Positions 10,738 through 40,888 of a stretch of 64,000 nt of DNA are shown here, piece after piece (positions within the stretch are counted from its first letter, which is position 1; each line of letters begins with the position of its first letter). The DNA lies in the NCBI GenBank assembly GCA_949878485.1, contig CATLAM010000006.1, positions 6,914 through 70,913 of the forward strand, written 5' to 3'. The DNA is from an uncultured Eubacteriales bacterium. GTDB taxonomy: Bacteria > Bacillota > Clostridia > Christensenellales > UBA1242. Under the pieces are notes generated by a model. That model saw nothing but the letters and a program-made list of their open reading frames with translations, ran no database searches and had not been told where the DNA came from. The position numbers and the translations under genes were made by a program.

Positions 10738-10764
10738 AGAAAAAACAAACCCTAAGGTCTGTTT
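10738..10764 (-). terminator. rho-independent terminator with no gene directly upstream on its strand (orphaned by the island?)
   Basis: Minus strand reads AAACAGACC-TTAG-GGTTTGTTT then TTTTTCTTATT. The 9-bp stem has one G-U pair only in the minus orientation. Confidence 0.5.
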
Positions 10765-10847
10765 TTAATAATAAAATACTCTGGTGATGTAAATTGCCTT
10801 ATTTTCCTAGGTTTTACGGCATTTTAAACGAGTTAAAATTTAAATTT

Positions 10848-10878
10848 ATAAAACTTTTATAAAAAACTTTATAAAAAT
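10848..10878. repeat. about 2.7 tandem copies of a 12-bp AT-rich unit (ATAAAA(A)ACTTT)
   Basis: ATAAAACTTTT / ATAAAAAACTTT / ATAAAAATG read directly, just outside the proposed left island end. Confidence 0.4.
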
Positions 10879-10941
10879 GCTACAAAAATTATTAATTAAG
10901 ATACAAGTTATCTTTCTGGTTGGTTTATTTTTAGATAGAAT

Positions 10942-10974
10942 AAGTGGACAAAGTTGCAAAATCTTTGCCCACTT
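10942..10974. terminator. hairpin just past the int stop codon
   Basis: AAGTGGACAAAG / CTTTGCCCACTT arms (1 mismatch) with a 9-nt loop. The T-run is stronger on the plus side, so it may also block read-in from the flank. Confidence 0.4.
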
Positions 10975-10996
10975 ATATTTTTTATTTTTTACTTTA

Positions 10997-12430
10997 TTAG
11001 CAATATAATAGTTGATTTATTAAATTGCTTGCATTTTTATCGGCTTCTTTTGTGTAGTGTGTGTAAATATTTAATGTTGTATTTGTATCACTATGTCCAG
11101 CTCTTGCTGATACTGTTTTTATATCCATACCACGAGTAAGTTGCATGGTAATATTTGTGTGCCTTAGCCCATGCGGAGTAATTTCTTTCAGTCCATTTTT
11201 TTGTTCAAACTGTTTTAACCATCTAAAAGTTGTTGCTCCTGCCATATTTGAGCCATCCCATCTTACAAATAGTCTATCGGTATTTGCCCATAAGTTGGCA
11301 TATTTTATTTTTTCACTATCCCAAAATTTTTTGTAATCTTTTAATAATGTTACAACTCCACTTGGAATGCTAATTGTTCTGTTAGAATTTTTTGTTTTTG
11401 TATTTTTAGTTACAACCCCTATGCCACAAGCATATATACTATTTCTTGAAATTGTTACTAGTTCTCTTTCAAAATCAAAGTCTTTCCATTCTAAACCTAC
11501 CAACTCTGCGTTGCGAACACCCAAAGCAATCATTAAAGTAAATGCAACTTTTTTTCTAATATCTGTTTCATTGTTTATGCAATCTACAAAATGTTTTATA
11601 GTTTCCGTGTCATCTAATATTTCTTTTTTACCAGAAGAACCTTTTTTAATAGGACGAATAAAATCACTAGAAGCATAATTGACACTAATTATACCTTGCC
11701 TTACTGCATCTCTAAGTATCGTATGTAGCATTATTTTAATTGCATTATTTGAGCCTCTTGAATATGGAACTTGCTCACTTTCGGCTTTAAAATAATCTTC
11801 AAAATTTATTTTTAAACCTCTACATATTTTTTTAGCCGTTTCCCTTTTTAATTTATTACCAACTTTATAAGCAACCTCTATGGTAGTATCAGCCAATTCA
11901 CATAATTTTGCACAAGATTGAGTAGTTAGGTTTTTTGCAGTAACCAAATCTCTTATGCTTTGCTTCACGGTTATAGTTTCTTTTTTATGAGTTCGTTCGC
12001 ATAGCCAATTGCAAAAGTCTTGTATTATAATTTGATTTAAACCCCTTAAAGTGTATTTGCCTAATTTATCTTTAAAAATTTTTAAATAGCCTTTGCAACT
12101 ATTATAATAAGAATAGCCTTGTTCGTGGTATATTAAAATATCTTCTACCCACTTTTCAGCAAATTCATAAAATCCTATGTCTTCCATAGGCTTGTTTAAA
12201 ATTCCATTTGAAAGCCTTTCAGTTTGTTCTTTTAAGTCTAATTGACATTTTAGTTTATACGATTCAATTTCTTTTTTGCCCTTTAAGTGATTAGGTACTT
12301 TATATGTTTTAACTTTTTGTTTAAATTTTTTTGTTAAAGGGTCTTTATAGTTGCACCAAAATACAAATGAAAGTTCGCCTTTTTGATTATATCGTTCTTC
12401 TGTGTGCATTAAATCATTTTTATTCTTCAT
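10997..12430 (-). CDS. int: tyrosine site-specific integrase, Tn916-Int-like architecture
   Basis: Catalytic R (LGVRNAEL), HGLRHT, and GHSDTNTTLNIYTHY (Tyr nucleophile). Start MKNKNDL at ATG 12430 with GAGG 7 nt upstream, overlapping the xis stop. 8 Trp codons, all TGG. Confidence 0.9.
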   Translation of the reverse strand: MKNKNDLMHTEERYNQKGELSFVFWCNYKDPLTKKFKQKVKTYKVPNHLKGKKEIESYKLKCQLDLKEQTERLSNGILNKPMEDIGFYEFAEKWVEDILIYHEQGYSYYNSCKGYLKIFKDKLGKYTLRGLNQIIIQDFCNWLCERTHKKETITVKQSIRDLVTAKNLTTQSCAKLCELADTTIEVAYKVGNKLKRETAKKICRGLKINFEDYFKAESEQVPYSRGSNNAIKIMLHTILRDAVRQGIISVNYASSDFIRPIKKGSSGKKEILDDTETIKHFVDCINNETDIRKKVAFTLMIALGVRNAELVGLEWKDFDFERELVTISRNSIYACGIGVVTKNTKTKNSNRTISIPSGVVTLLKDYKKFWDSEKIKYANLWANTDRLFVRWDGSNMAGATTFRWLKQFEQKNGLKEITPHGLRHTNITMQLTRGMDIKTVSARAGHSDTNTTLNIYTHYTKEADKNASNLINQLLYC

Positions 12431-12641
12431 CTGGTACCTCAATAATTTTTCCACCTAAAAATATTATAAGTGAATTGACATCAACTAAAATTTTGCTTGA
12501 ATTAATTATGCAATCTATTTTTCCACTTTTGCATAATTGTCTAATAAATCACTCGCTTACTGCGGTATTTTTGTCAAGCGACCTTAATTCATCCATACAA
12601 CCTTTTATGGTTTTTAATTCTGGCATAATTTTTTTAAACAT
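12420..12641 (-). CDS. xis: excisionase-like HTH protein; needs sense decoding of one in-frame TGA (codon 31)
   Basis: Not in the track. AAGGAG + ATG 12641. 73 codons if TGA (12549-12551) is read as Trp: ...DKNTAVSE(W)FIRQLCKSGKIDCIINSSKILVDVNSLIIFL... The TAA stop overlaps the int ATG (ATGAAGAATAA). Confidence 0.7.
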
Positions 12642-12662
12642 ATTTTTTGCTCCTTTTTTTTT

Positions 12663-12691
12663 ATATTAATTTCATTTTTTAAAAAGTTCAA
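12663..12691 (-). promoter_or_regulatory. putative xis-int promoter
   Basis: Minus strand TTGAAC-N17-TAATAT, about 20 nt upstream of the xis SD. Confidence 0.4.
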
Positions 12692-12799
12692 GGGTTTTGA
12701 AAGGTGTTTTTCAAGTTGTTTTAAGTTTGCCAAGTTTTTTTAGTAAAAGTATTATAAATGCCTTGCTTTAAGCTTGATTTTTGTTTATAATATTTTATA

Positions 12800-12819
12800 A
12801 ATCATATTTAAATATGATT
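12800..12819. promoter_or_regulatory. perfect 20-bp palindrome, probable operator
   Basis: AATCATATTTAAATATGATT. It overlaps a TTGCTA-N17-TATATA promoter-like element (12818-12846) upstream of the 12883 HTH gene, in the divergent xis/regulator intergenic region. Confidence 0.5.
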
Positions 12820-12882
12820 GCTAATTATATTTTTGATTACTATATATATAATCATTCTAGACTTTTTTGCGGGAGGTAAACC

Positions 12883-13863
12883 ATGGATAATTTATCTAAT
12901 ACTTTTAAAACTAATTTGCAAAAACTTTTGGCTGATAATAAGATATACATTAACAAGAAAAACCTTTCTTCTTCTATCGGCTATAAAACTGCAAACTCTA
13001 TAACAAAAGACTTAAATGGAAGCAAAGAGCCTTTTTGGCAAAAGGCTTGTAAGTGCATTGAATACCTTTATTCTAATGTTCCTTGCTTTACTTTAAACAA
13101 CCTTATTCCAACCATGGAAGAAAAGCAAGAAGATAAAAAAAGTTTTGCAGAACTTGAAAAGGACTACAAAACCTTAAAATCTAATTATGAGCAACTTGAA
13201 AAGAAATATAATAATCTTTACCAGTTTGCCAACTTTATTAACATAATTAAAAACCTTTCAAACGAAAGGCAGGATACTTTATTTAATTTAATGTCAGCCG
13301 AATGCTTTGCTGACTTTTTAACCAAACTAAGAGATTATTCACATAGAGCATTAATATTTGATAAGAATAATAAAAAATCTCATTATTCAAACACTTTTAT
13401 ATTTAAACCTTACAACTATAATACTTTTGCTTATGCTGATGCTTTATGCCAGCAAACAATACTTGCTTTAAGGCTTAAATATAGATTAAAAAACCAAGAC
13501 GAATATGATAGAACAGAAGAAGAAAAAAAACAAAAACGTATTGAAGAAAAGATAAACGAAATTAAAATTACAGGGAAAAGAAGAACTGTTAAAATGCGAA
13601 TTAAAAATTTACTTGAAGAAACTAGTAATGCTGACAATAAAAAGGAATTTAGAAAAGATAGATTTAATGACCTAACTCGTTGGAAATTTAACCCTTTGGA
13701 CTTTAAAGATAATACTCTTTGGAACTATGATTTTATCGATTATAAAACCCTTTATAAAAAACAATTAGCAGAATTTATCGAAGAAGAATTTGGTAAAGAG
13801 TACTCACAAAAATATTTAAAAAAATCGATGAAAGATGAAAACGACGATATATTTAAAACTTAA
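12883..13863 (+). CDS. island regulator candidate: N-terminal Xre-like HTH plus long charged/coiled-coil C-terminal region
   Basis: GGGAGG SD + ATG. The first ~60 aa resemble an HTH_3 pattern (LQKLLADNKI..NKKNLSSSIGYKTANSITKDLNG). Divergent from xis-int. 3 Trp codons, all TGG. Confidence 0.5.
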   Translation: MDNLSNTFKTNLQKLLADNKIYINKKNLSSSIGYKTANSITKDLNGSKEPFWQKACKCIEYLYSNVPCFTLNNLIPTMEEKQEDKKSFAELEKDYKTLKSNYEQLEKKYNNLYQFANFINIIKNLSNERQDTLFNLMSAECFADFLTKLRDYSHRALIFDKNNKKSHYSNTFIFKPYNYNTFAYADALCQQTILALRLKYRLKNQDEYDRTEEEKKQKRIEEKINEIKITGKRRTVKMRIKNLLEETSNADNKKEFRKDRFNDLTRWKFNPLDFKDNTLWNYDFIDYKTLYKKQLAEFIEEEFGKEYSQKYLKKSMKDENDDIFKT

Positions 13864-13868
13864 ATTAC

Positions 13869-13899
13869 AATGCGTCTATGAGCTTGTTAAATGCGTCTA
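13869..13899. repeat. two direct copies of AATGCGTCTA 21 bp apart (third copy at 15581-15589)
   Basis: Read directly; a relatively GC-rich motif in AT-rich intergenic DNA between convergent island genes. Confidence 0.5.
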
Positions 13900-13937
13900 C
13901 AATCAATCGCGACATTTAACTTAATAAAATATATTGC

Positions 13938-14108
13938 TTATTGCATTTCGTCCGTTAAACTTTCAGTTTTTATAATCTTTAAAATTTCTTTCAACCCTTT
14001 CAAATCAAATGTTTGAATTGAAATTTCTAAAAATGTTTTTAAATCTTTCTCTAAAAGGCTTAATAAAATCTCTATTAAGTCTTTTTCATATTCTTGTTCA
14101 ACTTTCAT
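13938..14108 (-). CDS. hypothetical small protein (56 aa), last gene of the island minus-strand operon
   Basis: Below the track cutoff. GGAG SD 7 nt before ATG 14108; MKVEQEYEKDLIEILLSLLEKDLKTF...; TAA stop. Confidence 0.45.
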   Translation of the reverse strand: MKVEQEYEKDLIEILLSLLEKDLKTFLEISIQTFDLKGLKEILKIIKTESLTDEMQ

Positions 14109-14131
14109 TTTGCTTACTCCTTTTAAATTAA

Positions 14132-14476
14132 TTAGTCGGCTATTAATTCAAAATATGGAAAGCCTTTTGTAAACTTTTCATTTGCTATTTGTAAATCTTT
14201 TTTCAACTTACATACTTTTAACCACTTGCAAGGCTCAATCAAATTTAGTTGTTTTAAAAATACAAAATCGTTATTGAGAGAAAGGTTAAAACTATTTTTA
14301 ATTTCTTTTGCAGTTTGTTCGGCATCATAATCACTCATACCAGCACGAATTACAATAAGGTTATTATCAAAATGACCTTCCGCAACTTTATAATTTTTTA
14401 TAATCTCGTCTATTTGTGTTTTTGTTAAAACACTCTTTTTTATTATTATGTCAATAAAGCCATAGCCAAAAACCAT
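14132..14476 (-). CDS. hypothetical protein (114 aa)
   Basis: Start set at MVFGYGF (ATG 14476, AAGGGGGG SD), 13 nt after the upstream stop. The longer track ORF overlaps the upstream gene. Confidence 0.55.
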   Translation of the reverse strand: MVFGYGFIDIIIKKSVLTKTQIDEIIKNYKVAEGHFDNNLIVIRAGMSDYDAEQTAKEIKNSFNLSLNNDFVFLKQLNLIEPCKWLKVCKLKKDLQIANEKFTKGFPYFELIAD

Positions 14477-14489
14477 TTTTTGCCCCCCT

Positions 14490-14975
14490 TTAAACAAATT
14501 CAACTTTCTCGCAAGATAAATTTGTAAGCCTAATTTTATTATCAATATCAAGTAGTTGCGTTTTAATGTTTTTGCAGTTAATTTTTTGTGTGTAAATTTC
14601 TTTACAATCAATAGAAGATAGGCAAGTAATTTGTTTGCACTTTAAAATATTTCCACTTATGTTTTTATGTATTAATATGCTTTCACAAACACACCAATCT
14701 TTTATAATTAAGTCGTCAGCAAATATTTTATTGCAAGTAAAAGAATAGTTAAAAGTAATTGTTTTTGCCTTTACATACACGCAACAATCATAGTCTTTTT
14801 TGCTTACTTTTTGGCATTCATAAACTAAGTCAACAGCACAATTAAATAAAACATCAACTTTCTCGCCATTTTCTATAAACTCAAATATAATTTGTTTATG
14901 CTTTCCGTCGTGCTTATCTGCTGGCACTATTTTAACATATCTTTCTAATTCTTCTAGTTTATTTATCGTTATCAT
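14490..14975 (-). CDS. hypothetical Cys-rich protein (161 aa)
   Basis: AAGGAG SD; about 14 Cys spread through a beta-rich-looking sequence; no family recognised. Confidence 0.55.
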   Translation of the reverse strand: MITINKLEELERYVKIVPADKHDGKHKQIIFEFIENGEKVDVLFNCAVDLVYECQKVSKKDYDCCVYVKAKTITFNYSFTCNKIFADDLIIKDWCVCESILIHKNISGNILKCKQITCLSSIDCKEIYTQKINCKNIKTQLLDIDNKIRLTNLSCEKVEFV

Positions 14976-15037
14976 TTTAACTCCTTATTTAAAGCGGATT
15001 TATTATTTTTAAGGGGAAGTTTATGTTATTATTAATA

Positions 15038-15544
15038 TCAAGTAGGGCAGTTCTTATCAAGCCAATCAAACCAATATTTATCTAAAATATGTGGTGCAAA
15101 ATCAACATACAATTTGCTTAAAAATTTAATAGCCAACTTTTCAATTATAAATTTTCTTGCAGTGTTTGAAAGAAATAAATTAATATTTTCTTGTCTTTGC
15201 TTTTTTGAAATGTTTTCTATATCTAAATTTAGTTTAAAAGTATCGTTGACTATTTTCATAAATCTATCGTCTTCAACCAGTTCTTCAAAAATCATATTTG
15301 AAAGTGATTTTGATATATTCTCATACTTGCTATATAAAAATATCTGCAACCCATATTTTTTAAACTTTTCAGCTGAAATAACCTTATAGACATTTCCCAA
15401 CTTTTCAACTGCACCATATTTTATTAAATCTTCCAAGGTAGATTTAGCCTTTGGAAAACTCCACTTAAAAAACCTTTGCAATGTTGCAATGCCAAAATTA
15501 TCTAAATTTATTAAGTCATTAAACTTCTCAATATTGCTTTTCAT
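15038..15544 (-). CDS. hypothetical protein with N-terminal FtsK-gamma-like winged helix
   Basis: GIATLQRFFKWSFPKAKSTLEDLIKYGAVEK resembles the FtsK gamma pattern (LQRxxxxGYxRAxxxxDxLExxGxV). Ends TGA-TAT-TAA. Confidence 0.45.
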   Translation of the reverse strand: MKSNIEKFNDLINLDNFGIATLQRFFKWSFPKAKSTLEDLIKYGAVEKLGNVYKVISAEKFKKYGLQIFLYSKYENISKSLSNMIFEELVEDDRFMKIVNDTFKLNLDIENISKKQRQENINLFLSNTARKFIIEKLAIKFLSKLYVDFAPHILDKYWFDWLDKNCPT

Positions 15545-15680
15545 ATAAACTCCTTTGTATCGGTTAGTACAAGCCGTTTAAATGCGTCTTACACCGTTCT
15601 TAATATTGTGTTTATATATTTTATTGCTTTTACATTTTGTGCTTTTAAACGCTAAGTTTTAATATCTAGTATTTTGTTTT

Positions 15681-15715
15681 TTTAAAGTAAAAGACAGCAA
15701 AAATACATTGCTGTC
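15681..15715 (-). terminator. rho-independent terminator after the 325-aa membrane protein gene
   Basis: GACAGCAA / TTGCTGTC 8-bp stem, 7-nt loop, TTTT tract on the minus strand; overlaps the stop codon. Confidence 0.5.
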
Positions 15716-16692
15716 TATTTATAGCCTAGGCTTTTTCTACACTTCTTAAAACCCTCAGTTTTACAAGCCCCATAGTGTGGACATTGAATACAACCAGCAG
15801 GACCAAAATCATTTCTTCTTGCGTTTCTTTCTGCCTCTCTATTTGCTCGTTTTTGTTCATCTAATTGTTTTTGCATAATTTCAGTTTGCTTTCTTGCTTC
15901 TCGTTGTAAATTTTGTTGATGTTCTTGTGCCTCTTGTTGCAATCTATAATTTGTTTCTTCATCTTTTATTGCTCTCTGTCTAATTTCATATTCCAGCATT
16001 TTTCTTTGCCTTTGCTGTTCTTTCAATATCTTCTTTTCTCTTTCGTCTTTAATAAATATTTCTATAGCCTCTTTTATATTGTCGGCTCGACCCATCTCAA
16101 AAATATTTATAAACTCTCTTGCGTTTTCTAGAACAACATCAGGATAATGAGAAAACTTTTTGCTGTTTTCTTTTAATAATAATACCTTTTTATCAATATT
16201 TTCTCTGTTTTTTTGTTTTATTTCATTTACTTTTTTCTTATATAATTCTTCTAAGCGTTCATACTTTTCTTGGTATCTCTCGTCATACTCTGATTTCCAT
16301 TGCCTATATTTTTTGTTGCTTATTTTTTCTATAATTATTTGTATAAGATTATAAATATCTATTACTAAACAAACTACAACCACAATTATAGCGGCTCCAA
16401 GGATTATTTGACCAACCAACTTACTCAAATAATCATTTGTATTAGTCATAATTAAATAAAAGAAAATTCCAACGATTATACTTATTGGCAAAACTATTGC
16501 ATTTGCTATGAAAGCATCAACTGTTTTGCCTCCTCTTGACTTCGGAGCATCCTTATAGCTTACTTTTAGCCGTTTTTCAAACCACTCTTCCTCATCTGGT
16601 AAATCTAGATATTCATACTTAGCTTGAATTGAATTATAAGTATCATTATATTCATTTAATTCTTTTAGTATTGTCTGTACAGAATTATCCAT
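15715..16692 (-). CDS. hypothetical membrane protein: 2 TM helices, long Q/E/R/K coiled coil, C-terminal Cys cluster
   Basis: Hydrophobic spans IANAIVLPISIIVGIFFYLI and ILGAAIIVVVVCLVIDIY; coiled coil about aa 130-290; C-terminus GCIQCPHYGACKTEGFKKC. Confidence 0.55.
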   Translation of the reverse strand: MDNSVQTILKELNEYNDTYNSIQAKYEYLDLPDEEEWFEKRLKVSYKDAPKSRGGKTVDAFIANAIVLPISIIVGIFFYLIMTNTNDYLSKLVGQIILGAAIIVVVVCLVIDIYNLIQIIIEKISNKKYRQWKSEYDERYQEKYERLEELYKKKVNEIKQKNRENIDKKVLLLKENSKKFSHYPDVVLENAREFINIFEMGRADNIKEAIEIFIKDEREKKILKEQQRQRKMLEYEIRQRAIKDEETNYRLQQEAQEHQQNLQREARKQTEIMQKQLDEQKRANREAERNARRNDFGPAGCIQCPHYGACKTEGFKKCRKSLGYK

Positions 16693-16716
16693 TACAACTC
16701 CTTATGATACAACCTT

Positions 16717-16745
16717 ATTATATATATTTCTCAATAAAAAGTCAA
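16717..16745 (-). promoter_or_regulatory. promoter of the 15715-16692 gene
   Basis: Minus strand TTGACT-N17-TATAAT, consensus-like. Confidence 0.55.
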
Positions 16746-16790
16746 ATATATTTACTACAAGTCAATAAAATATTTAATTTAAAGTCAATT
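16739..16790. promoter_or_regulatory. three AAGTCAA (TTGACTT) boxes at 20- and 23-bp spacing, putative operator array
   Basis: GTCAA at 16741, 16761 and 16784 in the divergent region between the membrane-protein gene and xre. The first box doubles as the -35. Confidence 0.4.
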
Positions 16791-16807
16791 TGGAACTATC
16801 TTCTAAA

Positions 16808-16835
16808 TTAGCACGACCTCAATATCATTTATAAT
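16808..16835 (+). promoter_or_regulatory. putative xre promoter
   Basis: TTAGCA-N16-TATAAT followed by AAAGGAGG SD. Confidence 0.4.
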
Positions 16836-16860
16836 TAATTGTAATAAAGGAGGTTAGGCT

Positions 16861-17169
16861 ATGGACAATAATGAACTTATAAACCGAATAGGCTTTATTA
16901 GAAATCGTGCAAATTTGTCGGCAAGAAAACTATCAATGGAAATAGGCAAAAATGAGTGCTATATTCATAGACTTGAAACAAGCAAAACATTTGCTCCAAC
17001 CTTTGAAACTTTAATGGATATTTTAGAGGCTTGTAATACTACCACCGAAGAATTTTTTTATTATAATATTTCAGCTTATAAACAAGATGAGGAAATATTA
17101 CAACTTTTAGAAACTGCCAGCCCAGAAAAGAAAACTGCAATCATTTCATTATTAAAATTAAAACAATAA
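16861..17169 (+). CDS. Xre-family HTH transcriptional regulator
   Basis: 102 aa; IGFIRNRANLSARKLSMEIGKNECYIHRLETSK is a typical HTH_3 pattern; strong SD. Confidence 0.75.
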   Translation: MDNNELINRIGFIRNRANLSARKLSMEIGKNECYIHRLETSKTFAPTFETLMDILEACNTTTEEFFYYNISAYKQDEEILQLLETASPEKKTAIISLLKLKQ

Positions 17170-17172
17170 AAA

Positions 17173-17199
17173 AGAAGGCTTGATACTTTTCAGCCCTCT
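17173..17199. terminator. hairpin between convergent genes; contains CTTGATAC (pC194/pUB110-type nick-site sequence)
   Basis: AGAAGGC / GCCCTCT arms (1 mismatch), 13-nt loop TTGATACTTTTCA, T-rich tail. CTTGATA at 17179-17185 spans the stem-loop junction. Confidence 0.45.
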
Positions 17200-17206
17200 T
17201 TTATTT

Positions 17207-17782
17207 TTAATATTTCTTTGTGAAATAATCTTTACCTGCTTGCCATAAATAAATATCTAGTTGTCTTAAAGTAAAGTCGTTTAACTTATAAAATTCTCTA
17301 AATGCGTTTAAAATAGAATAGAACTTTTTGTAATCTCTACAATCTTCATAAGAGAATTTGAAAAACTTATCTTGCTTATTTAAGTGCATTAGCATTTTTG
17401 CCACATAACTATCAAATATAGGAAATTCATTGCCAAGATGATGAACACAATATTTGGTTGCAAAAGAGTATATATTCCTGTTTATGCCGTTTTTTGTTTT
17501 GTCAGCAATATCATTTACAACAGACAAATCTTTTGCTTTTAATTTTTTATCTATGTTTAGCGAAACAATATACTCGGCTACCTTATATGTATTAAATATA
17601 TTTGTGCTATAAAAGTCATTGAGTATATTAACCTTTAATAAAACTTCGCTAATATCATTATTGTTAGGGTAAAGGGCAAACAACTTTTTTAATGCCTTTT
17701 CTTGTTCTACATAGTTTGATTGCGTATCGCAAAGCATTAAATACTTTTCAACTTCTGCTTTGCATGGCTTTTTTATCTCCAT
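17207..17782 (-). CDS. hypothetical protein (191 aa)
   Basis: Own TTGACA promoter and AAGGAG SD; helical-looking; no family recognised. Confidence 0.55.
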   Translation of the reverse strand: MEIKKPCKAEVEKYLMLCDTQSNYVEQEKALKKLFALYPNNNDISEVLLKVNILNDFYSTNIFNTYKVAEYIVSLNIDKKLKAKDLSVVNDIADKTKNGINRNIYSFATKYCVHHLGNEFPIFDSYVAKMLMHLNKQDKFFKFSYEDCRDYKKFYSILNAFREFYKLNDFTLRQLDIYLWQAGKDYFTKKY

Positions 17783-17804
17783 ATATACTCCTTTTATCTA
17801 TTCA

Positions 17805-17834
17805 ATCATAACATACAACTACATATTTTGTCAA
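17805..17834 (-). promoter_or_regulatory. promoter of the 191-aa gene
   Basis: Minus strand TTGACA-N18-TATGAT with TG two bases upstream of the -10. Confidence 0.5.
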
Positions 17835-17868
17835 ACAAAACGAATAAGTGTTTACTATAAATAGATAA

Positions 17869-17904
17869 AAAATAAAAGTAAGTTGTTATACCTACTTTTA
17901 TTTT
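17869..17904 (-). terminator. terminator after rep (12-bp perfect stem)
   Basis: AAAATAAAAGTA / TACTTTTATTTT with a 12-nt loop and a T-tract on the minus strand, 69 nt after the rep TAA. Confidence 0.55.
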
Positions 17905-17972
17905 GAGTTATTTTATGGCTAACTACATTAATTTTAGCCAAGATTATTTGTGTTTTAACAATATAATCATAT

Positions 17973-18800
17973 TTAAGTATTATTTTGTTTATTATCTACC
18001 ATTGCTATATTAGATGTTTTAAGCCTTTCAACTAGCCTTTGCATAAAATCTTTTTCACTAGGTAAATATATTTTATCCAAATAATATGTTAATTTATTAT
18101 CATTATTTAAAAAGTAATGCCCATTTTCAAAAGTATTGTAGTCAAGTACACCAATATATTCTTTGTATTGCTCTTCTAAAATACTATATAATAAGTTTTC
18201 GTCAATCTCAAATGCTGGTACATCAATATTTTTAATTCCTTGACTTCAAGTTATTATTCTTGCACCTATGGGAAAATAGGTATAAAAGCGATTGCCTTGT
18301 TGGATTGTATCATCTTTATATTTGGTAATATATTTTATTAAGCCTTGTATATTATAGGCATTTTTAATATTGACGAATCCATAACCTCAAAACTTTTTAA
18401 TATCATGATAACCTATTTTTAATTTTTCTTCATTCAATAATATTATATGTATGTGGAAAAAGTGGCTTGTGCCTTGCACTTCAATAGCCCTTATATATTT
18501 AATATTGTCGCCATAATTCCGCCTTATGCTTTTTATAAATTGTTTAAAGGCATTTAGGACTCTGTCAAACTCTATATAATGTTCAAAGGTAAGCGTAATT
18601 CATTTAGCAAAATAATTTGTCAAGTCCAGTTTATATAGTTCATATCTTTTGCGATTGATTGTTCTATTATAATCTTTTCTATCCATATTTAGTTTAGGCT
18701 TATCGCTACGCCTTAACCCATTTCACTTTTTATCTGCCTTTTCAGTATTAAATTTTTTTGAAACAATAATCATTCCGTTTGCAAATTCAATTTTGTACAT
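17973..18800 (-). CDS. rep: HUH rolling-circle replication initiator / relaxase-like Rep; needs sense decoding of four in-frame TGA codons
   Basis: Not in the track. GGAGG (18809-18813) + ATG 18800. 275 codons to TAA if TGA at codons 26, 67, 138 and 185 are read as Trp. Motifs WITLTF, HFFHIHIIL (HUH), GLIKYITKY. No TGG, no TAA/TAG, no frameshift. Confidence 0.75.
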
Positions 18801-18993
18801 TTTATATTCCTCCGTTTTGTTGAGCAATGCTCGTATATAGTTTAGCCTCGCAAGAACATTATTTAAAACTACTTTATATTAATAAAGATTTTAGGTGCTT
18901 GTTCTAAAAAATATATAATAATTTTTATAAAAATATTTTACTGAAATTTAGAAAATTTAAATTAAACTACAAATTTTAGAAATTTTATATAAT

Positions 18994-19034
18994 TTACACA
19001 AGTTGCAACTCAAATTAGGAAAGTTACACAAGTT
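18994..19034. repeat. two direct copies of TTACACAAGTT 30 bp apart, upstream of rep near the right island end
   Basis: 18994-19004 and 19024-19034, with a 10-bp palindrome AGTTGCAACT between them. AAATTT(T)AGAAA(A)TTT is also duplicated at about 18945 and 18971. Confidence 0.5.
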
Positions 19035-19073
19035 ATTTTAAAAAACAAAAGTTAAAATTTCTAGATTAATTAA

Positions 19074-19451
19074 TTAATAAATAAACATAGAAGCGATAAA
19101 TGCCCCAGCAATGGAAAAACACAAAAGAATTTTCAACCAATGCAGAATTTTGTATTTTTTCATTTTCTTGTTGTAATCTTTCTTGAAAGCAGTTTCGTTT
19201 TCATTGAAATAATCAGAAGTAATTTGTTTTTTATTTATAGTTTCCGCTTTGTAAAATTTAAAATTTTCTTCTAATTCTGTTTTGAAATCGGTGAAATATT
19301 TGTAAATAAGCCAACCACCCCAAAAGAAACTTAGAAGCATTGCAAATGCCATGGCAAAATATACAAAACCTGTCCATGTTTGAACAAGAATTGCACTTAT
19401 GCCAGCAAGCAAAACCAAAATAATTGTGACAATGTAAGGTATTTTAGACAT
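19074..19451 (-). CDS. hypothetical small membrane protein
   Basis: 125 aa, 3 predicted TM spans. Confidence 0.55.
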   Translation of the reverse strand: MSKIPYIVTIILVLLAGISAILVQTWTGFVYFAMAFAMLLSFFWGGWLIYKYFTDFKTELEENFKFYKAETINKKQITSDYFNENETAFKKDYNKKMKKYKILHWLKILLCFSIAGAFIASMFIY

Positions 19452-28403: not shown

Positions 28404-28904
28404 ATGATAGGAAGATTATTCAGAATAAAGAAATCCATAATCCTGAGATGGCTGGCTGTTTTGTTTAGTTTAATTTTTGCCACCTTGGTTTATCTCAGCA
28501 TATCAGTTTTTCAAAAACCAGAATTATGGTTTTTCAGTTTTTGTTTGTGTCTTGGGCTTTTTGAGATTGCCAAAAGTTTTATGTTTAACCTTGACAGTGC
28601 TTTTTATTTTGGCATTCTTATGACATTTTTGGGAATTGCTGGTTATGTGTTTATTTTCACTGACACTGCTTATTATGTAAGCGTGTTTATTCTTTCCGCC
28701 ATTTCTCTTGCTTCGTTGTTTACTTACAGCGTTACAAATCAAAAATTTCATCTCATAATCGCTTTTTCGCTGTTTTTCGTGGATATTTACACCTTTTTAT
28801 ACTTAAAAAATTTAATAACATTGCCTATTTTTATTGCTTTTATAGTGGGATTTTTGTTATTATTAATAGTGGCAATTATTTTAAGTTTTTTTAGGAGAGA
28901 TTGA
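28404..28904 (+). CDS. hypothetical integral membrane protein
   Basis: 166 aa, 5-6 TM spans. Ends with TGA at 28902-28904, one nt before the next ATG. Confidence 0.55.
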   Translation: MIGRLFRIKKSIILRWLAVLFSLIFATLVYLSISVFQKPELWFFSFCLCLGLFEIAKSFMFNLDSAFYFGILMTFLGIAGYVFIFTDTAYYVSVFILSAISLASLFTYSVTNQKFHLIIAFSLFFVDIYTFLYLKNLITLPIFIAFIVGFLLLLIVAIILSFFRRD

Positions 28905-34755: not shown

Positions 34756-35121
34756 TCAAAATGCATTTTCAATATGATTAATGTTGTCATCCAAAACTTC
34801 AATTACATCAAATCTAACATCATTATAAAACTGATTATTTTTCTGTAAATAAATTTCTGCAACAGTTCTGATTTTATTTTGTTTATAAAAGTTGACCGCT
34901 TCAACAGGTCTGCCAAAATCGGCATTCTTTCTTGCTTTAACTTCCACAAAAACAATAGTTTTGCCTTGTCTTGCAATTATGTCTATTTCTCCAAAATAGT
35001 TTTTATAATTCAATTCCAAAATTTGATAACCTTTCTGCTTCAAAAAATTTTGAACAGAAATTTCTCCAATGTCACCTTTAATTTTGTTTTGAATTTTTCT
35101 GAAGTCTTTTATTCCAAACAT
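34756..35121 (-). CDS. yraN: YraN-family (UPF0102) endonuclease-like protein
   Basis: 121 aa; GEIDIIA..VFVEVKAR pattern; TGA stop. Confidence 0.75.
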   Translation of the reverse strand: MFGIKDFRKIQNKIKGDIGEISVQNFLKQKGYQILELNYKNYFGEIDIIARQGKTIVFVEVKARKNADFGRPVEAVNFYKQNKIRTVAEIYLQKNNQFYNDVRFDVIEVLDDNINHIENAF

Positions 35122-40621: not shown

Positions 40622-40888
40622 TTATTTAATCTTACTTAATATTTTATCATACAAACGATGTAAAAGTCTATTAAAATATAACAGCCCATAAAAAACAATA
40701 AGAAAATTCAAAAAGAAAAATATAATTGTTGTAAAGGTTAAAATCAAAAACCCCCACCAAGTTCCATAAAAAATATCATCTGTCGGAAAAAAGAAAGATA
40801 AAACAGATGCTGTTCCATAAAAGAATTCCATTAAGCAATAAGGGATTAAAAGAAACAAAACATTTTTTAAATTTGAAACATCTCTCAT
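40622..40888 (-). CDS. hypothetical membrane protein
   Basis: Start taken as MRDVSNL (ATG 40888), which forms an ATGA overlap with the upstream TGA stop; 2-3 TM spans. Confidence 0.45.
   Translation of the reverse strand: MRDVSNLKNVLFLLIPYCLMEFFYGTASVLSFFFPTDDIFYGTWWGFLILTFTTIIFFFLNFLIVFYGLLYFNRLLHRLYDKILSKIK

What the first reader, a model, noticed from the sequence alone, without database searches (positions are those of the whole stretch)
10903..19036. Gene-selective UGA recoding: only the excision and replication genes of an integrated element need UGA suppression in a code-11 host (candidate codon-gated mobility switch)
Inside the island, Trp codon use is split cleanly by gene.
- xis and rep: 5 TGA, 0 TGG.
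- int (8), the 326-aa HTH gene (3), the five cargo genes (2, 3, 1, 1, 0) and the 191-aa gene (1): 19 TGG, 0 in-frame TGA.
- int physically overlaps xis yet uses only TGG.

The host side looks like standard code. Every core ortholog in about 55 kb is full length under table 11, so all host Trp codons are TGG. Three host genes end at TGA in typical stop geometry: 28902-28904 (TGA-A-ATG), 34756-34758, and 40885-40887 (ATGA overlap).

A plain import from a code-4 donor should scatter TGA across all element genes. Here TGA marks exactly the two functions that commit the element to leaving the chromosome and replicating.

Hypothesis: excision and replication are licensed only when UGA is suppressed. 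The suppressor could be a tRNA(UCA) from a TGA-recoded helper phage. Stop-codon-recoded phages infecting standard-code hosts are established knowledge; a recoded satellite or IME module is not, as far as I know.

Alternatives: (1) low-level natural UGA read-through acting as a strong attenuator, with one TGA in xis and four in rep; (2) a recently immobilised fossil.
Basis: partly seen in the sequence, partly recalled or inferred. Interest (0 to 1): 0.95.

Follow-up and report, generated by a model that had tools for sequence, protein, structure and literature searches.

The report
UGA-gated integrative element in Clostridia
An 8.3-kb mobile island in a gut Clostridia genome, like a whole family of relatives, writes only its excision and replication genes with UGA-for-tryptophan codons that the host reads as stop, so it can apparently leave the chromosome and copy itself only when something changes how the cell reads UGA.

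Summary
The island (window ~10769-19073) is a discrete insertion in a standard-code Clostridia genome.

- **Codon split.** rep has 4 in-frame TGA and 0 TGG. xis has 1 TGA and 0 TGG. All other island genes have 19 TGG and 0 TGA.
- **Conservation.** About ten diverged lineages show the same split, with Rep identity down to ~30%. These come from mouse gut and other metagenomes. In lineages that use a serine recombinase, an unrelated small ORF overlapping or abutting the recombinase start also carries TGA.
- **TGA means Trp.** One TGA sits on a Trp that is invariant in 43 homologues. dN/dS is 0.1-0.2 downstream of the TGAs.
- **Synonymous behaviour.** TGA and TGG swap at the same columns between relatives. 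TGA makes up 0.68 of rep Trp codons, matching the A-ending share (0.70) at two-fold purine-ending codons.
- **Activity.** One circular copy, one empty site and many insertion sites show the element is mobile.
- **Missing part.** No element copy carries a tRNA.

Best reading: mobility is gated at translation by UGA-to-Trp decoding supplied in trans. The source (a code-4 helper phage, a host tRNA-Trp variant or weak RF2) is untested. This is a new variant of the recoded-prophage "code switch".

The parts
10769..19073 (.). Whole integrative element (~8.3 kb). It sits between the stop codon of a 125-aa host membrane-protein gene and the terminator upstream of comM/yifB.
   Evidence: Empty site in L038, with 89-92% identical flanks. 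Copies with other flanks share the same ends: L012, L008, L028. GC is 0.25-0.28 against ~0.33 in the host.
17973..18800 (-). rep: HUH rolling-circle replication initiator, 275 codons, 4 in-frame TGA (codons 26, 67, 138, 185), 0 TGG.
   Evidence: PF23343, E 1.2e-15, 58 bits against a cut-off of 27.8. H116/H118 are invariant and Y157 nearly so. Codon 138 is an invariant Trp in 43 homologues. dN/dS is 0.1-0.2, including after the 4th TGA.
12420..12641 (-). xis: 73-codon putative excisionase with one in-frame TGA at codon 31 (12549-12551). Its end overlaps the int start.
   Evidence: Sequence. TGA is conserved in a 66%-identical homologue (L037), with dN/dS 0.22. AF2 model pLDDT 78; best PDB match is mycobacteriophage Pukovnik Xis, prob 0.98, E 0.09. 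No Pfam or NCBIfam hit.
10997..12433 (-). int: tyrosine recombinase, 8 TGG, 0 TGA.
   Evidence: PF00589, E 1.5e-24. Codon counts.
12883..13863 (+). 326-aa gene divergent from xis-int (possible regulator). 3 TGG, 0 TGA.
   Evidence: ORF. No significant family. Conserved in L012, L027-L036.
13938..16692 (-). Accessory block of 56-, 114(159)-, 161-, 168- and 325-aa genes. TGG only (7), no internal TGA. The 168-aa gene ends TGA-TAT-TAA. The 325-aa slot holds a different gene in relatives.
   Evidence: No PHROG or PADLOC family.
16861..17169 (+). 102-aa Xre/Cro-CI-type HTH regulator with no Trp codons.
   Evidence: PF01381, E 3.6e-5. PHROG transcriptional repressor families. Conserved in L001, L014, L016, L017.
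17207..17782 (-). Conserved 191-aa gene downstream of rep (1 TGG), with its own promoter-like site at 17834-17805. Function unknown.
   Evidence: Precomputed PF27257 hit on homologues. AF2 model is poor, pLDDT 61.
18994..19033 (-). Two exact ACTTGTGTAA copies 30 nt apart in the non-coding leader upstream of rep. Candidate operator, iteron or origin.
   Evidence: These are the only exact copies in the window. Function is inferred.
19066..19087 (.). rep-side junction: AT-rich core TTTATTTATTAATTAATTAA.
   Evidence: Junction comparison with L012, L008, L028 and L038.
10753..10775 (.). int-side junction: ...GTATTTTATTATTAAAAA.
   Evidence: Junction comparison with L012, L028 and L038.

Best explanation
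The island is an active, ~8.3-kb integrative element that replicates by a rolling-circle (HUH) Rep. It belongs to a widespread family in low-GC gut Clostridia.

Its genes are written in two codes. The recombinase, regulators and accessory genes use the host's standard code: Trp is TGG, and TGA is used as a stop. The Rep gene and the small directionality gene next to the recombinase contain UGA codons that must be read as tryptophan. That small gene is Xis with the tyrosine integrase, and an unrelated RDF-like ORF with the serine recombinases.

In an ordinary host cell these two mRNAs give truncated, inactive peptides, so the element stays integrated and silent. When UGA is efficiently decoded as Trp, Xis/RDF and Rep are made together, and the element excises and replicates. 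After transfer into a cell without that decoding activity, only the recombinase is made, which favours integration.

The decoding activity is not encoded on the element. It must come in trans. The most likely source is a UGA-suppressing (code-4) phage or other element that brings a tRNA(UCA) and/or lowers RF2 activity.

- Shown: the codon split, its conservation, selection on the full-length proteins, the standard host code, and mobility.
- Inferred: the switch logic.
- Unknown: the source of suppression.
For: 1. **The split exists and is not chance.** 5 TGA / 0 TGG against 0 TGA / 19 TGG, p = 2.4e-5.
2. **It is conserved.**
   - All close copies keep the same four rep TGAs.
   - Lineages with 28-39% Rep identity keep 2-4 TGAs in rep (L013-L016, L018-L022, L025/26).
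   - Where the contig holds them, their recombinases and other genes have none.
3. **It is convergent.** Three small ORFs of different length and sequence overlap or abut the recombinase start: 73 aa with the Tyr integrase, 54-62 aa and 75 aa with the Ser recombinases. Each carries 1-2 TGA.
4. **TGA means Trp.** Codon 138 is Trp in 43 of 43 homologues. Codon 67 is aromatic in 36 of 43.
5. **The genes are translated through the TGAs.**
   - rep dN/dS is 0.08-0.2 at dS up to ~1, and 0.09-0.25 after the 4th TGA in the pairs with enough substitutions.
   - xis dN/dS is 0.22 and the RDF-like ORF 0.15.
6. **TGA behaves as a synonymous Trp codon in rep.**
   - TGA and TGG swap at homologous columns, including between closely related L019 and L020/L022.
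   - A new TGA arose from a Leu codon in the L001 lineage, and L007 has Leu at the 4th TGA site.
   - The TGA share is 26/38 = 0.68, against an A-ending share of 0.70 at two-fold purine-ending codons.
7. **The host uses the standard code** (flanks).
8. **The element is active.**
   - L002 is a circular copy, 99.5% identical to L001, which is integrated in tRNA-Asn.
   - L038 is an empty site.
   - Two MAGs hold two copies each.
   - The identical Xis occurs on 21 contigs, with different flanks where flanks are visible.
9. **No tRNA in any copy**.
10. **Precedent.** Recoded prophages in standard-code hosts keep the integrase free of recoded stops. Code-4 phages occur in gut clades predicted to infect Firmicutes, and 35% of them carry a detectable TGA suppressor tRNA.
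Against: - No suppressor, helper phage or RF2 modifier was identified.
- The host tRNA-Trp and prfB genes could not be examined.
- No relative of Rep, the HTH regulator or the 191-aa protein was found in IMG/VR.
- There are no expression or proteomic data.
- The family occurs in many hosts, so each would need a suitable source of suppression.
- Native tRNA-Trp reads UGA at about 6% in B. subtilis (PMC6316719), and prfB mutants reach 19-54% (PMC7918605). tRNA-Trp(CCA) variants that read UGA are reported across diverse bacteria, including standard-code genomes (PMC13092985). A purely host-based route is therefore possible.
- The Xis and RDF identities rest on position plus a weak fold match.
- The circular contig could in principle come from a tandem copy.
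Confidence: 0.6

Rival explanations
1. Leaky-stop attenuator. No special suppressor exists. The host's ordinary tRNA-Trp(CCA) occasionally reads UGA. The TGAs keep Xis and Rep output extremely low, so excision and replication are rare random events.
For: - UGA is the leakiest stop and Trp is the residue inserted. Read-through is about 6% in B. subtilis.
- tRNA-Trp variants that read UGA occur in standard-code bacteria and go with low UGA stop usage. This host uses TGA for only 4 of 53 stops.
- No helper was found.
- A single TGA in xis fits a ~1-6% attenuator.
Against: - With 4-5 TGAs, the yield at 6% per codon is 1.3e-5 to 8e-7 per initiation.
- The number of TGAs varies from 2 to 5 among relatives, and TGG and TGA swap between closely related sequences. 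Under this model that would change output by orders of magnitude.
- The TGA share among rep Trp codons equals the neutral A/G expectation, 0.68 against 0.70.
- There is no conserved read-through context. The +4 base is G16/A13/T6/C5.
Confidence: 0.2
2. Self-supplied or host-state switch. The element encodes a non-tRNA factor, such as an RF2 antagonist among the unknown accessory proteins, or it exploits a host state with low RF2 activity. UGA decoding rises without any helper.
For: - prfB mutations raise UGA suppression to 19-54% in B. subtilis.
- Several conserved accessory proteins have no known function.
- No helper was found.
Against: - No accessory gene is shared by all gated lineages. 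L025/26 appear to have little besides rep, the small ORF and the recombinase.
- No family match points to translation factors.
- A self-made switch gives no obvious reason to keep the recombinase and regulators strictly TGA-free.
Confidence: 0.1
3. Decay or import. rep and xis are dead or dying genes, or recent imports from a code-4 (Mycoplasma-like) donor, and the element is immobilised.
For: - Some copies are damaged. Rep is truncated at codon 261 by TAA in L008, L010 and L028.
- L007 has an altered N-terminus, and P0004 is a chimeric fragment.
- L001's recombinase has a nonsense codon.
Against: - dN/dS is 0.1-0.2 at dS ~1.
- The same TGA columns are kept over deep divergence.
- There are no internal TAA, TAG or frameshift lesions in rep apart from the C-terminal one.
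- A circular copy, an empty site and many insertion sites exist.
- The pattern recurs in unrelated small ORFs beside serine recombinases.
Confidence: 0.03
4. The host itself reads UGA as Trp (code 4, or a constitutive efficient suppressor), which would make the pattern trivial.
For: - TGA stops are rare in the host (4 of 53).
- Gene callers used code 4 on the short element contigs.
Against: - 81 TGG and 0 internal TGA in 53 host ORFs at 32% GC.
- YraN and RimM terminate at TGA at the end of their profiles.
- Host flanks of L011, L012 and L026 show the same.
- 19 of 19 Trp codons in the other island genes are TGG.
Confidence: 0.03

Closest known systems
Alternatively coded (stop-codon-recoded) prophages integrated in standard-code gut bacteria (Borges et al., bioRxiv 10.1101/2021.08.26.457843; Garnet and Topaz prophages)
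   Same: - The host uses the standard code.
- The integrase is kept free of recoded stops while other functions need suppression.
- A 'code as lysis-lysogeny switch' was proposed.
- Code-4 (TGA to Trp) phages exist in clades predicted to infect Firmicutes.
   Different: - The two prophages analysed there are ~24-kb, TAG-recoded phages with most genes, especially structural and lysis genes, recoded. Suppressor tRNAs were detected in 35-40% of recoded phage genomes.
- Here the element is 8.3 kb, with no Pfam/PHROGs match to a virion or lysis gene (most accessory genes match nothing) and no tRNA.
- Recoding is confined to rep and the directionality gene.
- The element is absent from IMG/VR.
Phage satellites with an excision-replication-packaging cycle (SaPI/PICI, PICMI, P4-like; PMC10803314, PMC10085698)
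   Same: - A small integrated island with an integrase, regulators and its own replication initiator, but no structural genes.
- It stays silent until an external trigger starts excision and replication.
   Different: - As far as I know, known satellites are induced when helper proteins act on a satellite repressor, or by transcriptional control.
- Here the proposed trigger is the decoding state of a codon.
- Helper dependence, packaging signals and interference genes are not shown.
- The replicase is an HUH rolling-circle Rep, not a primase-helicase.
Rolling-circle plasmid acting as an inovirus satellite (pDolos, bioRxiv 10.1101/2023.11.28.569023), and integrative mobilizable elements with HUH Rep/relaxase
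   Same: - A small HUH-Rep replicon that could be packaged or mobilised by a helper.
- Rep belongs to the ORF2/G2P family. The nearest annotated relatives are replication initiators of small ssDNA phages and small Firmicutes RCR plasmids, at 24-35% identity.
   Different: - pDolos is an autonomous plasmid with no integrase or xis, and is described without any recoding.
- I know of no report of IMEs using in-frame UGA.
Leaky UGA read-through by tRNA-Trp (B. subtilis ~6%, Lovett 1991 as cited in PMC6316719; Q-beta A1 protein, from my own knowledge); tRNA-Trp(CCA) variants that read UGA (PMC13092985)
   Same: UGA is decoded as Trp in a standard-code cell and used to set the level of a protein.
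   Different: - Classical cases use one UGA at the end of a gene to make a minor extended product.
- Here 2-5 UGAs sit inside the catalytic core at conserved Trp positions.
- They drift synonymously with UGG.
Programmed ribosomal frameshifting in IS1/IS3-family transposases (from my own knowledge)
   Same: A translational recoding event limits production of the protein that commits a mobile element to move.
   Different: The mechanism differs (frameshift against stop suppression). Frameshifting is an intrinsic, constant low-frequency event rather than a conditional switch that depends on a trans-acting decoder.

Membership tests
Stop-codon-recoded mobile element in a standard-code host (code-4 type) | In-frame TGA at positions that are Trp in homologues | tested here: met
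   Codon 138 is Trp in 43 of 43 homologues. Codon 67 is F/Y/W in 36 of 43. TGA and TGG alternate at the same columns.
Stop-codon-recoded mobile element in a standard-code host (code-4 type) | Purifying selection downstream of the in-frame stops | tested here: met
   rep dN/dS is 0.08-0.2 overall and 0.09-0.25 after the 4th TGA in the informative pairs. xis is 0.22 and the RDF-like ORF 0.15.
Stop-codon-recoded mobile element in a standard-code host (code-4 type) | Host genes use the standard code | tested here: met
   81 TGG and 0 internal TGA in 53 host ORFs, with 4 TGA stops. YraN and RimM end at TGA at the end of their profiles. Whole-genome inference was not possible.
Stop-codon-recoded mobile element in a standard-code host (code-4 type) | Integrase free of recoded stops | tested here: met
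   Tyr integrase: 8 TGG, 0 TGA in the window, L027, L028 and L037. Ser recombinases: 0 internal TGA in L001, L002, L011, L014, L020, L022, L025/26.
Stop-codon-recoded mobile element in a standard-code host (code-4 type) | Element encodes its own suppressor tRNA (found in only ~35-40% of recoded phages) | tested here: not met
   ARAGORN finds no tRNA in the window or inside any element copy. The only tRNAs found, Val and Asn, flank or overlap the element ends. The Rfam E-value scan of the island finds no tRNA.
Stop-codon-recoded mobile element in a standard-code host (code-4 type) | Is a phage (structural and lysis genes, recoded) | tested here: not met
   No structural or lysis family in Pfam or PHROGs. 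No relatives in IMG/VR.
Phage satellite (PICI/PICMI-like) | Integrated island of 5-20 kb with recombinase, att junctions, regulator and its own replication initiator, and no virion genes | tested here: met
Phage satellite (PICI/PICMI-like) | Induction by, and packaging or transfer through, a helper phage | not testable with these tools
   No helper identified, no virome link.
HUH rolling-circle Rep, Pfam PF23343 (REP_ORF2-G2P) | Profile match above the gathering threshold | tested here: met
   58 bits against 27.8, E 1.2e-15, with TGA read as W. PHROG 3584 replication initiation protein, E 1.7e-9.
HUH rolling-circle Rep, Pfam PF23343 (REP_ORF2-G2P) | HUH metal-binding motif and catalytic Tyr conserved | tested here: met
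   H116 and H118 are invariant and Y157 is conserved in at least 90% of 43 homologues.
HUH rolling-circle Rep, Pfam PF23343 (REP_ORF2-G2P) | Cognate double-strand origin / nick site | not tested
   The only lead is a pair of ACTTGTGTAA repeats upstream of rep.
Excisionase (winged-helix Xis / MerR-like) | Small ORF immediately upstream of and overlapping the integrase gene | tested here: met
   14-nt overlap. The same arrangement occurs in L012, L027-L037.
Excisionase (winged-helix Xis / MerR-like) | Sequence-profile match to an excisionase family | tested here: not met
   No Pfam or NCBIfam hit even at a permissive E-value.
Excisionase (winged-helix Xis / MerR-like) | Winged-helix excisionase fold | tested here: inconclusive
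   The AF2 model (pLDDT 78) has beta-alpha-alpha-beta-beta-alpha topology. The top PDB match is Pukovnik Xis 4j2n, prob 0.98, TM 0.53-0.66, but E = 0.09.
Programmed leaky UGA read-through | Single UGA in a conserved read-through-promoting context | tested here: not met
   2-5 TGAs per rep. The flanking codons and the +4 base vary.

The most novel reading that the evidence does not exclude
These islands are satellites, or defence-like hitch-hikers, keyed to the genetic code of their helper. They have no sensor protein. Instead they detect infection by, or induction of, a UGA-suppressing (code-4) phage directly through translation. The helper's tRNA(UCA), and/or its shut-down of RF2, turns the Rep and Xis/RDF mRNAs from nonsense into sense. 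That triggers excision and rolling-circle amplification. The TGA-free recombinase ensures integration in helper-free recipients.
Probability: 0.35. Interest if true: 0.93.

Novelty: new variant of a known kind. Interest (0 to 1): 0.82.

Why it matters
- **A new kind of switch.** If the reading is right, a mobile element can use the cell's momentary genetic code as its on/off switch, with no sensor protein. That extends the 'code switch' idea from large recoded phages to minimal non-phage elements that depend on someone else's suppressor.
- **A testable system.** Two genes and one to five codons make a compact way to ask how stop-codon recoding regulates life-cycle decisions.
- **A marker for code-4 phages.** The elements could serve as a natural reporter for when and where UGA suppression occurs in gut Clostridia. 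They could mark hosts of code-4 phages, whose hosts are largely unknown.
- **Annotation.** Standard pipelines will call these rep and xis genes pseudogenes, or will mis-assign code 4 to whole contigs. An active family of elements is therefore being overlooked.

Tried and rejected
- **tRNA on the element.** ARAGORN on the window and on 37 related loci, plus an Rfam E-value scan of the island, found none.
- **Link to phages.** Four IMG/VR scans found no relatives: Rep with two alignments, the HTH regulator, and the 191-aa protein. INPHARED tblastn gave only 24-31% identical ssDNA-phage Reps.
- **Defence cargo.** PADLOC gave no credible hit.
- **Function of the 191-aa protein.** The AF2 model was too poor (pLDDT 61) to search with.
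- **Host genome.**
  - The exact RNase Y look-up failed.
  - No release-factor (GGQ) motif is present in the window.
- **Technical.**
  - The 43-sequence Rep alignment was too diverse for a metagenome scan, so a 6-sequence alignment was used.
- **Read-through context.** No conserved context was found.
- **Promoters.** The scan was not above chance overall.
- **Considered and rejected.**
  - Selenocysteine: several TGAs per gene, one on an invariant Trp and one on an aromatic column.
  - Frameshifting or split genes: the frame is continuous.
  - Inovirus or microvirus prophage: no morphogenesis or capsid genes.

Full report
**1. What is in the sequence**

Under table 11 the stretch 17800-19070 has no long ORF. 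Reading TGA as sense gives a 275-codon gene on the minus strand (17973-18800). It has four in-frame TGAs at codons 26, 67, 138 and 185, and no TGG. With W at those codons it matches Pfam PF23343 (REP_ORF2-G2P, an HUH rolling-circle initiator) at E 1.2e-15, and a PHROG replication-initiation family.

A 73-codon ORF (12420-12641, minus strand) overlaps the start of a tyrosine recombinase gene (10997-12433; PF00589, E 1.5e-24). It has one TGA at codon 31 and no TGG. All other island genes together hold 19 TGG and no internal TGA. Fisher's exact test on the split gives p = 2.4e-5.

**2. The host uses the standard code**

Outside the island, 53 ORFs of at least 90 aa contain 81 TGG and no internal TGA. 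Their stops are TAA 36, TAG 13 and TGA 4. YraN and RimM end at TGA exactly where their NCBIfam profiles end. Host genes flanking related copies behave the same way. No release-factor gene or tRNA lies in the window.

**3. Extent and activity of the island**

- A related genome has the same neighbourhood (RNase Y, two small membrane-protein genes, comM) at 89-92% identity but without the island (L038). This places the insertion at about 10769-19073.
- Copies in other MAGs share the same ends but have different flanks. One sits next to a tRNA-Val, others next to other genes. The shared core is a short AT-rich sequence.
- Rep relatives were found in three species-representative MAGs labelled uncultured Clostridia/Eubacteriales, one of them from a mouse-gut catalogue. 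Two of these MAGs hold two copies each.
- The identical Xis sequence occurs on 21 contigs from many samples.
- A serine-recombinase variant is present both integrated into tRNA-Asn (L001, L011) and as a contig with an exact 30-nt terminal overlap (L002; 9196-bp unit, 99.5% identical to L001). That overlap is what a circular molecule gives in a k = 31 assembly. The k value is from my own knowledge of Logan.

The element family is therefore mobile now.

**4. The codon split is a family trait**

- Every close copy keeps TGA at the same four rep codons.
- The L001 lineage (76% Rep identity) has five TGAs and one TGG. The extra TGA replaces a Leu codon.
- L007 has Leu at the fourth site.
- Lineages at 28-39% identity have 2-4 TGAs and 1-3 TGG in rep: L013/L018, L014, L015, L016, L019-L022 and L025/26. 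The last two groups come from JGI metagenomes.
- Where their contigs hold them, the recombinases, HTH regulators and accessory genes of these lineages have no internal TGA. Several of those genes use TGA as their stop codon.
- Two relatives, L017 and L023, have no internal TGA.

The most telling point concerns the serine-recombinase versions. They carry a different small ORF that overlaps or abuts the recombinase start (54-62 aa in L001, L011 and L014; 75 aa in L025/26). That ORF too has one or two in-frame TGAs. So the directionality-gene position is gated in two unrelated recombination modules.

**5. TGA means Trp, and the proteins are made**

- In an alignment of 43 homologues with 25% mean column identity, codon 138 is an invariant Trp. 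Codon 67 is aromatic, with F 29, Y 4 and W 3.
- Pairwise dN/dS for rep is 0.08-0.2 at dS up to about 1. Downstream of the fourth TGA it stays at 0.09-0.25 in the pairs with enough substitutions.
- xis compared with a 66%-identical homologue gives 0.22, with the TGA conserved. The RDF-like ORF gives 0.15.
- The Xis model (pLDDT 78) has a winged-helix topology. Its best PDB match is mycobacteriophage Pukovnik Xis, with prob 0.98 but E 0.09. There is no sequence-profile hit. The 'xis' label therefore rests on position plus a weak fold match.

**6. How efficiently is UGA read when it matters?**

A codon-marked alignment shows TGA and TGG alternating at the same Trp columns. The invariant Trp is TGA in ten sequences and TGG in four. 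A TGG/TGA difference also separates the closely related L019 from L020/L022.

Over eight lineages, TGA makes up 26 of 38 rep Trp codons (0.68). That is indistinguishable from the A-ending share of two-fold purine-ending codons in the same genes (0.70). The other island genes have 0 TGA in 19 Trp codons where 0.79 would be expected (P = 1.7e-13). So rep evolves as if under code 4, and its neighbours evolve under code 11.

This argues that UGA is decoded about as well as UGG in the situation where Rep function is selected. It argues against a simple leaky attenuator. At the 6% read-through reported for B. subtilis, four or five TGAs would give 1e-5 to 1e-6 of full-length product, and each gain or loss would change output about 17-fold. 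No conserved read-through context is seen either.

**7. Where does the decoding come from?**

It does not come from the element. No tRNA was found in the window, in any of the related loci, or by an Rfam scan. It is not a constitutive host activity either (section 2).

The literature gives three routes:
- Code-4 phages that bring tRNA(UCA) into standard-code gut Firmicutes. That work also describes recoded prophages whose integrase alone is free of recoded stops, and a proposed lysogeny switch (10.1101/2021.08.26.457843).
- Host tRNA-Trp(CCA) variants that read UGA (PMC13092985).
- Reduced RF2 activity, which raises suppression to 19-54% in B. subtilis (PMC7918605).

I could not examine host tRNA-Trp or prfB. 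I also found no link to viral contigs. The helper-phage idea therefore remains an inference. It draws support from the element's lack of any recognisable transfer or packaging genes.

**8. Verdict**

- The 'fossil', 'import' and 'code-4 host' explanations are rejected.
- Leaky read-through is disfavoured.
- A translational gate on excision and replication that depends on trans-supplied UGA-to-Trp decoding is the best-supported mechanism (confidence about 0.6).
- The specific helper-phage version has a probability of about 0.35.

Relative to known systems this is a new variant of the recoded-prophage code switch. It is a minimal, non-phage, rolling-circle integrative element. Its recoding is confined to two genes, it carries no suppressor of its own, and the same solution has arisen with both tyrosine and serine recombinases. 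Searches of the held literature found no description of such elements.

Noticed in passing
L002 7502-9226 and around the circle; L011 15472-17280; L025 1568-3508; L026 11038-12978: In the serine-recombinase variants attP lies inside the 3' end of the recombinase ORF. The circular form encodes 641 aa. In integrated copies the ORF instead runs antisense through the tRNA-Asn gene and stops at a TGA. Integration therefore changes the recombinase C-terminus.
   Followed up: partly
L001 7491-8945 versus L002: The integrated copy L001 has a GAA-to-TAA nonsense change in the recombinase, relative to the 99.5% identical circular copy L002.
   Followed up: partly
L008, L010, L028 rep codon 261: Three copies share an AAA-to-TAA change that trims the last 14 residues of Rep. 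Two of them are the two copies in MAG MGBC127298. It is unclear whether the shortened Rep still works.
   Followed up: no
window 15038-15544 (-); L016 4905-5381 and 1377-1739: Accessory genes end in tandem stops that start with TGA: TGA-TAT-TAA in the window and TGA-TGA-TAA in L016. The L016 HTH repressor also ends at TGA. Back-up stops would make sense if TGA is sometimes suppressed.
   Followed up: no
window 15715-16692 (-): The 325-aa transmembrane/coiled-coil gene occupies a variable slot. L012 and L029 carry a 293-aa gene there, and L027 a 250-aa gene. The rest of the element is 94-98% identical.
   Followed up: partly
window 18994-19003 and 19024-19033 (-): Two exact ACTTGTGTAA copies lie 30 nt apart in the leader upstream of rep. 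They are the only exact copies in the 64-kb window. They could be an operator, iterons or part of the origin.
   Followed up: partly
window, host genes: TGA is a rare stop in the host: 4 of 53 genes, against TAA 36 and TAG 13. This could reflect AT bias, or selection in a lineage exposed to UGA suppression.
   Followed up: no
window 14132-14611 (-): The listed 159-aa ORF (TTG start) overlaps the 161-aa gene by 122 nt. Gene calls on related contigs start at the internal ATG, giving 114 aa (14132-14476), which is the more likely gene.
   Followed up: partly
P0004 (ENA contig, 934 nt): A 191-aa predicted protein fuses a PF01928-matching N-terminus to the last ~85 residues of this Rep (82% identity). 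It is probably a decayed or rearranged copy.
   Followed up: no
L027 1-3800: In one genome the element sits next to a second tyrosine integrase gene. A CD-NTase (CBASS-like) gene fragment lies about 3.5 kb upstream, beyond a seryl-tRNA synthetase gene. This may be a hotspot for mobile and defence genes.
   Followed up: no
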